A DNA stretch of 30,914 nt from a virus (Duplodnaviria; Caudoviricetes). The position numbers and the translations under genes were made by a program. This document shows positions 23,550-30,382 of the stretch, piece after piece. Under the pieces are notes generated by a model. That model did not search any database. It worked only from the letters and a program-made list of their open reading frames with translations, and was not told the DNA's origin. Position 1 is the first letter of the stretch; every line of letters begins with the position of its first letter. The DNA lies in the IMG/VR virus record IMGVR_UViG_3300008255_000336, positions 1 to 30,914 of that record. The stretch is one strand, 5' to 3'.

Positions 23550-23782
23550 TCTCTGATAGCCTTTCGTTGGTACTTTTTATAATTACGATCTATTTCAATG
23601 CTTGTAGCAGAGTGCATTTTTAGTATTTTCTTTATCTGTAAGTCGGTATCATCTACCACCTGCTCATCAACTTTGCCGATAGCTTCTAACGAGATTACTC
23701 TAGTGAGTAAGCCCGTTAGATTGCTATTAAGGTTCATTGAGTTAATTAAATGTTGAGTTAGTACGTCGCTATATTTAGACAT
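23546..23782 (-). CDS. Hypothetical protein
   Basis: Coupled to upstream gene. Confidence 0.55.
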   Translation of the reverse strand: MSKYSDVLTQHLINSMNLNSNLTGLLTRVISLEAIGKVDEQVVDDTDLQIKKILKMHSATSIEIDRNYKKYQRKAIRE

Positions 23783-25724
23783 AGTATCCTTGCGCTCTAA
23801 TTAGATCTCTCTCGCCGGGTTTCATAATCAAGCAATCACCATTACCTAACAATCGCTCTGCTCCGGTCTGATCTAACACAACCTTTGAGTCGATACTGGT
23901 TGAAACCATGTAGCAGACACGAGTAGGTAGGTTAGCTTTAAATGATCCTTTGATGACGTCTACACTTGGCCTCTGAGTAGCTAGGATTAAGTGAATACCG
24001 CTAGCCCTAGACTTCTGAGCCAATCTAACTAACATCATCTCGATTTCTTCTGCATAAGAGCGTTTGTAACTTTTCTCTTTGCCGTCGAGTTCTTGCTTTT
24101 CGACGTAGTTGTCTGGGTTCTGCAAAATGTCTGCCAACTCATCAACTACTATAACTACTCTGCTCATCTTAGTTTGTGCAATACTTTTTACTTTACGTCG
24201 TTTTAACTCGATGTAGCGTTGCTCCATGAGATCGACCATAGATGTTAATAACTTGTGGATATCTCCAATTTCAGAGTACACACCTCGTACACACTTCTCG
24301 CCCTCTAAGTGAGAAAACTCTGTGCGCTTTGGATCGACTAGGTGAAGTTGCAAACTGTTATTACTGTTCTGTTGAATTAAGGTGGTTATCATTGCCTCGA
24401 GTCCTATTGACTTACCGCTACCGGTTGCGCCGGCTACGAGTACATGAGGGGCAGACTCTAGGTTAATTGATACCTTATTCTTGTAAACGTCCTCACCTAC
24501 TGGCATTATCAACGATCGGTTATTTTCTAACTCTGGCAATTTAACAAAGTCTTGTTTTTCGTTTGAGAGTTCGATACCGACGTATTGAGTACCGGGAATT
24601 GGTGAGATTATGCGAGCTGACATACTGCCGGTAGCTTGCATCACATCAGGCTCGTGTTTTTGTAAGCTAGCCATCTTCACACCAACGCCGGGTAAGAATC
24701 GATACAATGTGGCGCTTGATCCCTTGAATTGATCGACATACTGTAGGTTTTGGCCGAAGTCTTGTAGTTTAACGATTATTTTCTCGTGAGGCTCTTTAGC
24801 TTCCATTACTGCGGTGTTAGCAATAGATGGCTCGAATTGCTTAGCCTGTACCTGCATGAGTGGTGACTTATTGACGATCTGAGGCATAACCAAGTCGTCG
24901 AGTGAGTCTTTGCGGTACTCCTCCCACACCTTACCGCCGAGCATACGATCCATAAAGTTAGGTTTAAACACTTTGTTAGGATTCGATAGATCGATGATGA
25001 TTGTGTCGTAAAGGTTTAAAAATACCTGTTTCCAGTCGTTAGTTTTCTCAAAGTCAATATAGATGAGGTTTGTTTGTTTACCGCCGTTACGATTCACGCT
25101 TGGCTTAATCTCAAAGAAGTAATAACCTCTCATCGGTCGGCCATACTTAGCCAACATAGCGAAGTAGTTAGCGGCCGCCTGTAGATTGTATTTTGCAAGT
25201 GAGACGTGATCGTCGCTTGTCTGTAGGTCTGCTTTAGTCTCTGTGAGAGATCGAGTAGTTTTCCAATCCCAACCGTAGATCTCGCCGTCAATCTCAGTAA
25301 CAAGGTCAGTAATTGCTTTAATTGGTACGGGAGACATCACACCGTCGCCGGTGTCAAAGTTGGCCGTGTTCTCTACCTCAGCGCCGATAACCTTACCGAC
25401 ACTTGGTAACTCGTTAGTGAAAAACTTAACTAGGTTTGCTAACTCTGCTTTACACTTATCACGTGATCCGGTTTTACCCCAATCGATTTTAGATGCTGGT
25501 CGCTCGTCGATTATCTGAATAGCGTCGGCCATTGCGATATCGTGGGCTACACCCTTAAACATCATCTCTGCGTATTTGTGGAAGGCAGAGCCGACTAACA
25601 TAGACGGTGTGCCTAAAAACAAGTCGTATCGGCTCTCAATGTATTTTAAAAACCAAGCATACTCATTGTTAGCATAGAGCGACATTGAGCTGTAGCTTAG
25701 GTGTTCGATTGGTAAAGTGTTCAT
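23775..25724 (-). CDS. PD-(D/E)XK (RecB/Cas4-like) nuclease fused to FtsK/SpoIIIE-type ATPase
   Basis: N-terminus LSYSS...GSAFH...E...IKAITDLV...DWKT; C-terminus ARIISPIPGTQYVGIELSN, PHVLVAGATGSGKS, LVDPKRTEF, VIVVDELADIL, RLAQKSRASGIHLILATQRPS, GAERLLGNGD. Confidence 0.9.
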   Translation of the reverse strand: MNTLPIEHLSYSSMSLYANNEYAWFLKYIESRYDLFLGTPSMLVGSAFHKYAEMMFKGVAHDIAMADAIQIIDERPASKIDWGKTGSRDKCKAELANLVKFFTNELPSVGKVIGAEVENTANFDTGDGVMSPVPIKAITDLVTEIDGEIYGWDWKTTRSLTETKADLQTSDDHVSLAKYNLQAAANYFAMLAKYGRPMRGYYFFEIKPSVNRNGGKQTNLIYIDFEKTNDWKQVFLNLYDTIIIDLSNPNKVFKPNFMDRMLGGKVWEEYRKDSLDDLVMPQIVNKSPLMQVQAKQFEPSIANTAVMEAKEPHEKIIVKLQDFGQNLQYVDQFKGSSATLYRFLPGVGVKMASLQKHEPDVMQATGSMSARIISPIPGTQYVGIELSNEKQDFVKLPELENNRSLIMPVGEDVYKNKVSINLESAPHVLVAGATGSGKSIGLEAMITTLIQQNSNNSLQLHLVDPKRTEFSHLEGEKCVRGVYSEIGDIHKLLTSMVDLMEQRYIELKRRKVKSIAQTKMSRVVIVVDELADILQNPDNYVEKQELDGKEKSYKRSYAEEIEMMLVRLAQKSRASGIHLILATQRPSVDVIKGSFKANLPTRVCYMVSTSIDSKVVLDQTGAERLLGNGDCLIMKPGERDLIRAQGYYV

Positions 25725-28306: not shown

Positions 28307-28397
28307 GTGGGTAATTTCTTGGGGTCGTTTTTTCTCTTTAATTGTTTGATTCTTTTTTTACCTTACTTTTAATACTTAGTTAAGTTTATTTAAAAAG

Positions 28398-28737
28398 CTA
28401 GATAATTCCAGAACCCAGAACCCTAGAGCTTGACTATCCGAGTCTGGGGGTGATTATTTTCCGAGCATAGGAAGATAAAGCCCTTGACAGTCGTGTCGAG
28501 CCTATGGGTCTGTTTAATGTAGCGCTACTATATTTATGCGTGTGACAATTCCGTCACCCGTCACCCTTTGCGAGTCTCTTGTAACCGGCAAATTATTTAA
28601 CGACGCTCCCGGTGGGCATGACTCACCCCTTATCCCACGTCGCTAGCGAGTGCTAGGCAGAGAGGGCGCTTAATGGTCGATCAGTTCAAAACACTTATAT
28701 AAGCGCAGATCGGTTACTCCTCTCTGCTTAACACTCG
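28398..28737 (-). ncRNA. Multi-stem structured non-coding region
   Basis: Stems 28647-28665/28719-28737, 28666-28672/28700-28706, 28598-28606/28637-28645, 28448-28453/28561-28566 plus internal hairpins; no ORF in track. Confidence 0.55.
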
Positions 28738-28793
28738 GTTAAGTTATCAATTACTGAGCGAGAGAGACAGGCCGTAGCGTCCTACGTCTGCTT

Positions 28794-28883
28794 GTCACCC
28801 TATGGGAATCGAACCCATCTCTGCCGGCTAGAGGTTAATTAGGCCTCCTGCACCGGCCGTCCTGCCGATAGACGAAAGATCAC
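28794..28883 (-). ncRNA. tRNA-like element with expanded anticodon arm
   Basis: D arm GTCT-ATCGGCA-GGAC, stem GCCGG/CCGGC around 25 nt, perfect T arm ATGGG-TTCGATT-CCCAT, imperfect acceptor stem, no CCA. Confidence 0.7.
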
Positions 28884-28915
28884 TCTCTCTTGCTCAATAA
28901 TCGATTTTTAATGTG

Positions 28916-29278
28916 CTACGATCGGAACGCATACCCATTTTGATAGGTAGTCGTGACCGGTCGATCCATGATGCCGGAGTCCTCGAAGGCCTCTTGTAGT
29001 TTGAGGTCTGCTTGTAACTCCTCTGCTCGCTTATCATCTTCGAGCTTTTGTTCTTCTAATTCTGCAATGCGTGGGATTATGTAGGTATCGTGTATGTGAG
29101 TTTTAATAGCCTTTTCCGGGTGGTTTTTCCCCTTACCTGCTATCCACTCCTTACGATTACTAGCGTCTTTTAACTCACTTAGAGTCATTTCTGAGACGCC
29201 TTTTTTGGCGCTGGGAGATCTTTTGGTGCGTAGTAGTTGCCCCGTCTCCTGCCATTTATTAAAACCTGTTTGAGTCAT
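28916..29278 (-). CDS. Hypothetical protein downstream of attenuator-like leader
   Basis: 120 aa; ATG directly follows the T7 tail of the leader hairpin. Confidence 0.6.
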   Translation of the reverse strand: MTQTGFNKWQETGQLLRTKRSPSAKKGVSEMTLSELKDASNRKEWIAGKGKNHPEKAIKTHIHDTYIIPRIAELEEQKLEDDKRAEELQADLKLQEAFEDSGIMDRPVTTTYQNGYAFRS

Positions 29279-29479
29279 AAAAAAACCGCTTTCGGCTTGG
29301 CAAAGGCTAGTAAAACTAGACTTTTGGCAAAGTGAACCTCTGCCAATGCGAAAACGGTTGTCTCCGCTAATTTTACTATACTTATCCCACTTTGGTAACT
29401 ACCGTGTAGGGATGCCGGTTATAAGCCGGACACTTTGCCAATTACAAACACAATAGCATTGAAAACATAAACTTTGCAA
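29279..29479 (-). promoter_or_regulatory. Promoter plus C4/CI-like attenuator leader
   Basis: TTGCAA-18 nt-TATTGT with TG extension; terminator-like stem 29284-29294/29349-29359 plus T7; loop sequences complementary to upstream leader boxes. Confidence 0.7.
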
Positions 29480-29483
29480 GTGG

Positions 29484-29620
29484 AAGTTTTAGAAAGGCGA
29501 GGCGTACTTCTGCGCTAAACCCATAAAAGCGACTGGCTAGGGTTAAGTGCCTCGATAGTAAAGTTAATCACACCCGTTGCTTATGGCCTTTACTACCAGC
29601 TTATGAGGTCGGGAAAACCT
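29484..29620 (-). ncRNA. ~135-nt structured RNA with its own extended -10
   Basis: TGcTATACT at 29627-29635; stems GGTAGTAAAG/CTTTACTATC, CGAGGC/GCCTCG, AACCC/GGGTT. Confidence 0.55.
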
Positions 29621-29634
29621 TAATTAAGTATAGC

Positions 29635-29701
29635 AAATAAAACACCCCCTCGATTTTTTGATTCAGACAAAAGAACACAAAAAAGGGATTGAGGGGGTGC
29701 A
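29635..29701 (-). ncRNA. Hairpin sRNA antisense to several phage ribosome-binding regions
   Basis: TATACT at 29708-29713; GCACCCCCTC/GAGGGGGTGT stem, T-rich tail; internal 13-18 nt complementarity to five leaders. Confidence 0.7.
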
Positions 29702-29823
29702 ACATCAAGTATAGAACACAAGCGACCGATGGTAAATACAAAGATCTAAACCTTTGCTATCGGTCGCCACGTGTAGCTCACAACAAACTCGCTAGAATAG
29801 CCTACGTGGTGCGTTGTGTGCTG

Positions 29824-29902
29824 TGGACATGGTGGGACTCGAACCAACGTCACAAACTCGTCGCATTGAGCGGTTTAAAGTTTGACAGTACCAATCATGC
29901 CC
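29824..29902 (-). ncRNA. Minimal tmRNA-like tRNA-like domain RNA lacking the mRNA-like domain
   Basis: Acceptor GGGCATG/CATGTCC-A with G3:U wobble, unpaired D-loop with GG, helix CAAACTT/GAGTTTG, GAC linker, T loop TTCGAGT. Confidence 0.75.
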
Positions 29903-30047
29903 TAGTTTTTAAAAGCTCGTCACTACTAACCGCAGTATTGCGATACTCAATTCCGTTCTTATGTTTTTTGAGTACCTCTTTTTTTCGACGCTCTATTTCA
30001 TCGTCGCTGAGCTTTTTGTTTGGGAGATCTTTTTTTTGATCGGCCAT
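29895..30047 (-). CDS. 50-aa charged peptide (absent from ORF track) ending inside the tmRNA-like RNA
   Basis: MADQKKDLPNKKLSDDEIERRKKEVLKKHKNGIEYRNTAVSSDELLKTRA; consensus TGcTATAAT lies 9 nt upstream. Confidence 0.6.
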   Translation of the reverse strand: MADQKKDLPNKKLSDDEIERRKKEVLKKHKNGIEYRNTAVSSDELLKTRA

Positions 30048-30067
30048 AGTACGGCCATTATAGCATT

Positions 30068-30382
30068 TTACTTTTTGCGGTTGTTTAGTTTCTTAACTAA
30101 GAAAACAAACGACCAAGCAAGCGCAGTCAAAACAAAGTTTACAAAAACACTTCGTTTATTCGCTAATGGATGCGGACTAATTAAATCAAAGAATCTAAGA
30201 GTGTAATACAGAGCGTTAAATAGTGATGCTAAAAAAATGGCAATAAACATAAAAAGTAAATTGCCTTTTGCTTCGCCATCGATTTTATTCAAATAGCGAA
30301 TCATCATCACGTCGGCCGGTAGGGCGGATAACGCAAAGAGCAAGTTAATCATGTTTAATGCGTTTACCGAGTCGATATCCAT
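30068..30382 (-). CDS. Three-TM membrane protein, possible holin
   Basis: Three hydrophobic segments and basic C-terminal tail. Confidence 0.5.
   Translation of the reverse strand: MDIDSVNALNMINLLFALSALPADVMMIRYLNKIDGEAKGNLLFMFIAIFLASLFNALYYTLRFFDLISPHPLANKRSVFVNFVLTALAWSFVFLVKKLNNRKK

What the first reader, a model, noticed from the sequence alone, without database searches (positions are those of the whole stretch)
29824..29902. 79-nt tmRNA mimic: alanine-type acceptor domain with the whole mRNA-like domain missing
Seen: GGGCATG-ATTGGTACTGT-CAAACTT-TAAACCGCTCAATGCGAC-GAGTTTG-TGAC-GTTGG-TTCGAGT-CCCAC-CATGTCC-A. Established: a G3:U pair with A discriminator specifies AlaRS charging, and an unpaired D loop plus a short GAC linker before the T arm mark the SmpB-binding domain of tmRNA rather than tRNA. 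Here helix 2 is capped by an 18-nt insert instead of pseudoknots and a tag ORF. CCA is not encoded and the T stem has one mismatch. Inference: an SmpB decoy that blocks trans-translation, a tag-free ribosome rescue RNA, or a decoy for tRNA-targeting defences.
Basis: partly seen in the sequence, partly recalled or inferred. Interest (0 to 1): 0.85.

Follow-up and report, generated by a model that had tools for sequence, protein, structure and literature searches.

The report
Divergent phage tag-less mini-tmRNA gene
This uncultured phage carries a 79-base copy of only the tRNA-like end of the bacterial ribosome-rescue RNA (tmRNA), a form already reported from phage DS6A and common in viral metagenomes; it likely competes with the host's rescue-and-tagging system, though this copy is divergent and may be weakened.

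Summary
The element has a 7-bp acceptor stem with G3·U70 and A73, an unpaired D loop, a 7-bp helix 2 capped by an A-rich linker and small hairpin, GAC and a T arm. It has no tag frame. It is the same form as the published 'TLD only' tmRNA of mycobacteriophage DS6A, so it is a new member of a known kind; this scan noted the type before on other genomes. Two viral pattern scans show a large covarying family. In the scan that did not specify the acceptor stem, 94 of 94 unique hits kept G3·U70, A73 and a fully paired T stem, which points to selection for alanine charging. This copy is among the most divergent: U·C at T-stem pair 51:63 (paired in 79 of 79 others), A20→U and a bulged U. A related phage has 422 other bases at this site. 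Best reading: a host-processed, alanylated SmpB binder that outcompetes host tmRNA and suppresses tagging. Rivals: template-free alanine donor, decaying copy, defence decoy. Expression and function are untested.

The parts
29824..29902 (-). Mini-tmRNA gene (tRNA-like domain only), G1 = 29902, discriminator A73 = 29824
29896..29902 (-). Acceptor stem 5' strand (G3 at 29900)
   Evidence: 7/7 pairs with 29825-29831
29885..29895 (-). Unpaired D loop: A8, GG (29892-29891), 4-nt spacer, G19 equivalent (29886), U in place of A20 (29885)
   Evidence: model alignment; positions
29878..29884 (-). Helix 2, 5' strand
   Evidence: 7 pairs with 29853-29859
29860..29877 (-). 18-nt cap in place of pseudoknots and tag frame: A-rich linker plus 3-bp hairpin (29862-29872)
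   Evidence: 17-nt match in L118/L243
29853..29859 (-). Helix 2, 3' strand
29849..29852 (-). Connector: bulged U (29852) then GAC (A334 equivalent at 29850)
   Evidence: the same extra U occurs in one L252 copy
29832..29848 (-). T arm with U·C mismatch at pair 51:63 (29846/29834)
   Evidence: same letters in contigs of runs X1 and X3
29825..29831 (-). Acceptor stem 3' strand (U70 at 29827)
29895..30047 (-). 50-codon upstream ORF whose stop codon is nt 6-8 of the RNA; 5' maturation would leave it non-stop (inferred; ORF may not be a gene)
   Evidence: no Pfam match
30057..30065 (-). Extended -10-like site (TGnTATAAT), possible promoter for the ORF and the RNA
   Evidence: only match in the window, but 1.32 expected by chance: position suggestive only

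Best explanation
The element is a phage gene for a tag-less tmRNA of the DS6A type, which is likely cut out by host tRNA-processing enzymes, charged with alanine and bound by host SmpB, and so would outcompete host tmRNA and suppress tagging of proteins on stalled ribosomes during infection. Shown: the anatomy, the family, its covariation and its match to DS6A. Inferred: transcription with the co-oriented lysis-region genes, RNase P cleavage at G1, CCA addition, alanylation through G3·U70/A73, SmpB binding through the D loop (G19) and connector (A334), and competition with tmRNA. This copy's T-stem mismatch would weaken EF-Tu binding and T-arm folding, which fits SmpB sequestration better than efficient ribosome entry.
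For: Same architecture as the DS6A element, including the A-rich linker and hairpin cap. DS6A RNA or 'a similar molecule' is reported to inhibit tmRNA, chargeable or not, perhaps by titrating SmpB (PMC4131195; PMC11915505). Family covariation: 93.4% of cells paired, 18 of 22 pairs with changes on both sides, 0 of 500 shuffles, slid controls 39-54%. Scan without acceptor in the pattern: G3·U70 94 of 94, A73 94 of 94. G19 and A334, named as SmpB contacts in PMC8363625, are kept here. The phage record shows no SmpB (93% complete). Mostly viral: 95 of 120 viral loci were closed short domains against 1 clear case among 120 cellular loci, and that genome also has a full tmRNA.
Against: No expression or binding data for this copy. 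It is divergent: 51:63 is paired in 79 of 79 and 94 of 94 other members (24 sequences shared); predicted T-arm probability 0.002 against a family median of 0.86, though 8 of 79 members are also under 0.2; the domain fold is 4 kcal/mol above the minimum. Its 47.3 bits overlap the best 3' ends of full-length tmRNAs (48.2 and 45.4). A related phage has 422 other bases here. Strict conservation of alanine identity is not needed by a pure SmpB sponge, which favours the first rival. The two papers differ on whether the DS6A RNA itself was tested, and Mao et al. 2009 was not held.
Confidence: 0.5

Rival explanations
1. Active tag-free alanine donor: Ala-RNA·SmpB·EF-Tu enters stalled ribosomes and, with no template to switch to, adds alanines round after round, replacing the host tag with an alanine tail or none.
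For: TLD plus SmpB makes polyalanine without mRNA in vitro (Shimizu and Ueda 2006, seen through PMC3929946 and PMC2481249). Alanine tails are degrons in bacterial RQC (PMC11633108). Family keeps G3·U70, A73 and a paired T stem in 94 of 94, with G51-C63, the tightest Watson-Crick or wobble pair for EF-Tu in PMC3239215 Table 2, in 67 of 94. CDS-less tmRNAs are thought to work in mitochondria.
Against: No stop codon, so release needs another factor. The one reported in vivo effect is inhibition. This copy has U·C at 51:63, a pair not in that table and probably weak.
Confidence: 0.2
2. A decaying, no longer functional copy of the family gene.
For: Three departures from consensus (51:63 mismatch, A20→U, bulged U); lowest tier of family scores; Rfam tmRNA 22.1 bits against 43.2 for DS6A and 69.9 for L243; replaced by 422 other bases in a related phage.
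Against: Acceptor 7/7, helix 2 7/7, cap hairpin, G3·U70, A73, G19, GAC and T loop all intact although the closest member found (L118) differs at about a quarter of positions (alignment score 58 of 79); random decay would be expected to hit these. The bulged U recurs in L252 and non-A position 20 in several members.
Confidence: 0.17
3. Decoy or spare substrate against defences that cleave or sense tRNA or tmRNA.
For: CoCoNuT systems carry SmpB-like domains and RNases predicted to target tmRNA (PMC11090510). Some members lie among phage tRNA genes.
Against: That targeting is a prediction. Nothing found here links the RNA to a defence system; it has no anticodon loop for anticodon nucleases.
Confidence: 0.08
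4. A cis processing signal or integration remnant: the fold serves to cut the phage transcript, or is a leftover attP copy of ssrA.
For: Members sit in tight gaps of late operons; 84 of 100 flanking ORFs are co-oriented. An upstream ORF's stop overlaps the RNA 5' end here and in 11 of 91 members, against 1 of 65 full tmRNAs.
Against: 80 of 91 lack the overlap and 4 of the 11 are one clade. Neither idea explains G3·U70 in 94 of 94. Both ends are present and joined by a conserved cap; no integrase among the 44 of 82 window ORFs scanned, and 1 of 50 loci had one next door.
Confidence: 0.05

Closest known systems
'TLD only' (standard, no CDS) tmRNA of Mycobacterium phage DS6A (tmRNA Website tmID 11587; JN698994.1 28478-28557 to A73)
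   Same: 80 vs 79 nt; unpermuted order; G3·U70, A73; unpaired D loop with GG and G19; helix 2 capped by A-rich linker and 3-bp hairpin; CCA not encoded; intergenic and unannotated in a phage.
   Different: No blastn match between them. This copy has U·C at 51:63, U at position 20, a bulged U and GAC; DS6A has a paired T stem, A20 and CAC. Host unknown here.
Standard bacterial tmRNA (SsrA, Rfam RF00023)
   Same: Both ends match the model; the cap often holds the RCAYGY motif also seen near nt 42 of full tmRNAs (41 of 141 members, 4.3% of shuffles; 24 of 101 full tmRNAs).
   Different: About 290 nt missing: no pseudoknots, resume codon or tag frame; below gathering score.
CDS-less organelle tmRNAs (mitochondrial, mostly permuted; ~65-bp Mallomonadaceae plastid genes)
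   Same: tRNA-like domain with no tag frame (PMC11915505).
   Different: Those are the cell's only tmRNA, with a nucleus-encoded SmpB in the mitochondrial case; this one is viral cargo that would meet a full host tmRNA.
tRNA-Ala (Rfam RF00005)
   Same: Acceptor stem, G3·U70, A73, T arm.
   Different: A8 not U8, no D stem, no 7-nt anticodon loop; 17.8 bits, E 2.1; not called by ARAGORN.

Membership tests
TLD-only (standard, no CDS) tmRNA, DS6A type | 7-bp acceptor stem with G1-C72, G3·U70 and A73 | tested here: met
TLD-only (standard, no CDS) tmRNA, DS6A type | Unpaired D loop with GG and G19, A/R at position 8 | tested here: met
TLD-only (standard, no CDS) tmRNA, DS6A type | Tandem G·A junction (G19·A334, A20·G333) closing helix 2 | tested here: inconclusive
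   G19, G333 and A334 equivalents kept; A20 is U and one U is bulged. Other members also vary here.
TLD-only (standard, no CDS) tmRNA, DS6A type | Helix 2 closed by a short cap, no tag frame or pseudoknots, unpermuted order | tested here: met
   no credible other 5' partner from 1 kb upstream to 0.8 kb downstream
TLD-only (standard, no CDS) tmRNA, DS6A type | T arm with conserved loop and 5-bp stem | tested here: inconclusive
   Loop and 4 of 5 pairs present; 51:63 is U·C, against paired in 79 of 79 and 94 of 94 others
TLD-only (standard, no CDS) tmRNA, DS6A type | Scores with a family model built without it | tested here: met
   47.3 bits over all 79 positions, E about 4e-9; tRNAs up to 30.7, but two tmRNA 3' ends reach 45-48
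TLD-only (standard, no CDS) tmRNA, DS6A type | Processing, alanylation, SmpB binding, inhibition of tagging | not testable with these tools
   needs bench work
Standard tmRNA (RF00023) | mRNA-like domain with resume codon and tag frame | tested here: not met
   33 nt where the model has 324 positions; ARAGORN finds no tmRNA
Permuted two-piece tmRNA | 3' half precedes 5' half, with a separate coding piece | tested here: not met
   Order is 5' then 3'. One downstream 7-mer (29575) pairs only with three G·U and lacks the D-loop GG; no tag-like frame seen nearby.
tRNA-Ala | D stem and anticodon stem-loop | tested here: not met

The most novel reading that the evidence does not exclude
Tag-less mini-tmRNAs are a widespread phage tool that turns host trans-translation into template-free alanine addition on intact 70S ribosomes, an RNA-only counterpart of RQC alanine tailing, and phages gain, swap or shorten it as a cassette (the related phage's 422-base replacement may be a longer form).
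Probability: 0.2. Interest if true: 0.75.

Novelty: new member of a known kind. Interest (0 to 1): 0.38.

Why it matters
The 2025 tmRNA database lists 9 'standard, no CDS' genes among 97,179 and drew its viruses from RefSeq (PMC11915505), while one strict pattern gives an estimated 710 matching viral stretches, about four in five of those inspected being closed short domains. If these RNAs act on trans-translation, phage interference with ribosome rescue is common and unannotated, and a 79-nt RNA is a ready inhibitor to test. This copy adds a natural variant with a broken EF-Tu determinant, useful for separating SmpB sequestration from ribosome entry. On its own it is one more, rather divergent, member.

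Tried and rejected
Plus-strand reading: folds no better than shuffles. Ordinary tRNA and full or permuted tmRNA: rejected. In the narrower Rfam search the tmRNA model was not listed at all, only tRNA at E 2.1, so the Rfam hit depends on filters; other matches in a bacterial genome, probably tRNAs, score up to 32 bits on RF00023. Assembly error at the mismatch: contigs of runs X1 and X3 and locus L259 carry the same letters; X1 and L259 may be this DNA's source. Close homologues of intermediate divergence: none read. Split tmRNA assembled in trans with a nearby coding RNA (lead from earlier findings): no tag-like frame in six translations and no pairing above shuffles, best 9%. Conserved protein partner: none among 100 flanking ORFs of 50 loci; about 17 of 50 lie by head or packaging genes. 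Stop-codon overlap as a family trait: 11 of 91 only. Promoter: not above chance. Host: unresolved; best named cellular FtsK matches were Dojkabacteria at 37%, and 17 of 36 genes have a Shine-Dalgarno-like word. Expression: no RNA holder listed; the two possible RNA runs laid do not cover the element; this says nothing either way. Mao et al. 2009 not held; the 2025 database supplement was cut when stored and gave no DS6A row.

Full report
Setting. The window is a 30,914-base virus record, 93% complete, with nearly all genes on the minus strand: terminase, portal, HK97-type capsid, tail, RecT and an FtsK-nuclease fusion. The finding lies on the minus strand, just past a predicted lysis region (a 376-aa gene and small membrane-protein-like ORFs, read partly from the longer copy L259; their lysis role is my inference), in a stretch poor in ORFs.

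Observation. It has a 7/7 acceptor stem with G3·U70 and A73, an unpaired D loop, a 7-bp helix 2, an 18-nt cap, GAC, and a T arm with U·C at 51:63; CAG follows A73. Rfam's tmRNA model matches both ends (22.1 bits, E 6.6e-6) with 33 nt in place of 324 positions. That is under the gathering score, ARAGORN misses it, and the free fold is unremarkable (z -0.95). A descriptor as loose as this copy hit 0 of 300 shuffled windows. Contigs from two runs carry the same letters, one possibly the source.

A family. 95 of the 120 closed into a short domain with at least 6 of 7 acceptor pairs, giving 79 unique sequences of 65-94 nt, mostly 78-80; the other 25 failed that filter and include 3' ends of full tmRNAs. 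T-stem pairs 49:65, 50:64 and 51:63, not fixed by the pattern, were paired in 79 of 79 with four or five pair types each, and helix 2 averaged 7.4 pairs against 4.2 in shuffles. Most caps are an A-rich linker, a 3-bp hairpin and 1-3 nt. On a 78-sequence alignment without this copy (DS6A, 68 first-scan members of 75-81 nt and 9 others; shorter and longer variants left out; fitted by a first model, so it leans to the structure), 93.4% of cells paired, 18 of 22 pairs changed on both sides, 0 of 500 shuffles reached this, and slid controls gave 39-54%. Because the first pattern imposed G3·U70, I ran a second that named no acceptor base: of 120 loci, 94 unique sequences, with U70 and A73 in 94 of 94, G3·U70 in 94 of 94, a 7/7 acceptor in 93, a 5/5 T stem in 94, and CCA encoded in 27; 24 were shared with the first set. 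Alanine identity is therefore under selection in the family. In cellular genomes a similar pattern gave 120 loci from 2 of 64 parts; 105 were full tmRNAs and 1 was a clear short domain (L151), in a genome that also has a full tmRNA. Neighbours vary: about 17 of 50 loci lie by head or packaging genes, others by lysis, replication or tRNA genes.

This copy. A model built without it scores it 47.3 bits over all 79 positions, above tRNAs (up to 30.7) and most tmRNA 3' ends (up to 37.4), but two such ends reach 48.2 and 45.4, so the score alone does not settle membership; the closed acceptor, D loop and shared cap do. It keeps the G19 and A334 equivalents that contact SmpB in E. coli (PMC8363625, passages; numbering by alignment, E. 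coli positions partly recalled). It departs at A20→U, a bulged U and the 51:63 mismatch. The 51:63 pair is one of three that set EF-Tu affinity (PMC3239215, passages; U·C is not in its table). Predicted T-arm probability is 0.002 against a median of 0.86, though 8 of 79 members are also below 0.2. The nearest member, L118/L243, shares 17 nt of the cap and has a paired T stem. A related phage in run X11 aligns on both sides (29443-29829 and 29944-30154) but has 422 other bases for 29830-29943. The 308-base excess is close to the size of an mRNA-like domain, but the letters were not shown, so this is open. A 50-codon ORF ends at nt 6-8 of the RNA, so 5' maturation would leave it non-stop, as described for Carsonella smpB (PMC4131195); only 11 of 91 members share such an overlap.

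Mechanism. Inferred path: co-transcription, RNase P and 3' trimming, CCA addition, alanylation and SmpB binding, all known for tmRNA (PMC3929946, passages; the G3·U70 rule and CCA addition are established knowledge). The record shows no SmpB, so the host's would be used. Without a template the RNA cannot tag, so it would either hold SmpB away from tmRNA or enter stalled ribosomes and donate alanine; TLD plus SmpB makes polyalanine in vitro (Shimizu and Ueda 2006, seen only as cited in PMC3929946 and PMC2481249). I put competition with tmRNA at 0.5, active alanine donation at 0.2, decay at 0.17, defence decoy at 0.08 (PMC11090510, passages) and a cis or integration role at 0.05. Family-wide alanine identity argues for charging; this copy's T stem argues against efficient EF-Tu delivery.

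Comparison with what is known. Earlier findings of this scan pointed to DS6A, and I checked it. PMC4131195 (passages) lists DS6A as 'TLD only' and says a similar molecule, chargeable or not, strongly inhibits tmRNA, perhaps by titrating SmpB. PMC11915505 (passages and part 1 of 2 of Results) says the DS6A form was shown to inhibit endogenous tmRNA in E. coli, and counts 9 standard no-CDS genes among 97,179. The source, Mao et al. 2009, was not held, so which RNA was tested is unresolved; that paper's Table S2 and the bioRxiv supplements, which I could not see, may list more phage examples. The DS6A element has the same layout and cap and scores 66.2 bits in the family model, of which it is a training member. 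Searches (listings and abstracts) showed no paper describing a widespread viral family; the library lacks most subscription journals.

Verdict. A real feature and a new, divergent member of a known but little-studied kind, noted before by this scan on other genomes. Interest 0.38: the family's size and the open choice between SmpB sequestration and alanine donation are worth testing, but this locus is not a new kind of system.

Noticed in passing
window 28390-28920, minus strand: About 530 ORF-free bases that fold far better than shuffles (z -5.35, 0 of 100), with an internal four-way tRNA-like cloverleaf (ARAGORN 'tRNA-Ile' 28794-28875; weak tRNA-Sec match 16.1 bits) inside a 22-nt long-range inverted repeat. 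Largely conserved in the X11 relative: of 10 differences mapped, one predicted pair changes on both sides (28523/28915), two go G·U to A-U, three are unpaired and three adjacent pairs break. Candidate unknown large phage RNA.
   Followed up: partly
window 29280-29820, minus strand: Second ORF-poor structured stretch: hairpins right after the mini-tmRNA (29700-29830, z -2.42) and a ~370-nt region ending in a terminator-like site at 29298-29283 (z -1.75). 29443-29829 is kept, with many indels, in the X11 relative. No tag-like frame seen.
   Followed up: partly
run X11 record 4, against window 29830-29943: A related phage has 422 other bases in place of these 114; the alignment still includes the last 6 nt of the RNA. 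Could be a longer tmRNA form, another cassette or loss.
   Followed up: no
L252 2501-2585 and 2814-2916: One 65-kb phage carries two tag-less tmRNA-like genes about 230 bases apart, of 85 and 103 nt.
   Followed up: partly
L019, L039, L063, L120: In one clade the stop codon of the upstream gene (an exonuclease-family gene in the three scanned) ends on G1 of the RNA, so 5' maturation would leave that mRNA non-stop.
   Followed up: partly
window 23775-25724, minus strand: 649-aa PD-(D/E)XK nuclease fused to an FtsK motor, next to RecT; a full-length family in uncultured sequences at 30-98% identity.
   Followed up: no
L032, L064, L065, L069: Shorter family variants of 62-67 nt in which helix 2 closes with a plain loop and no hairpin cap.
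   Followed up: no
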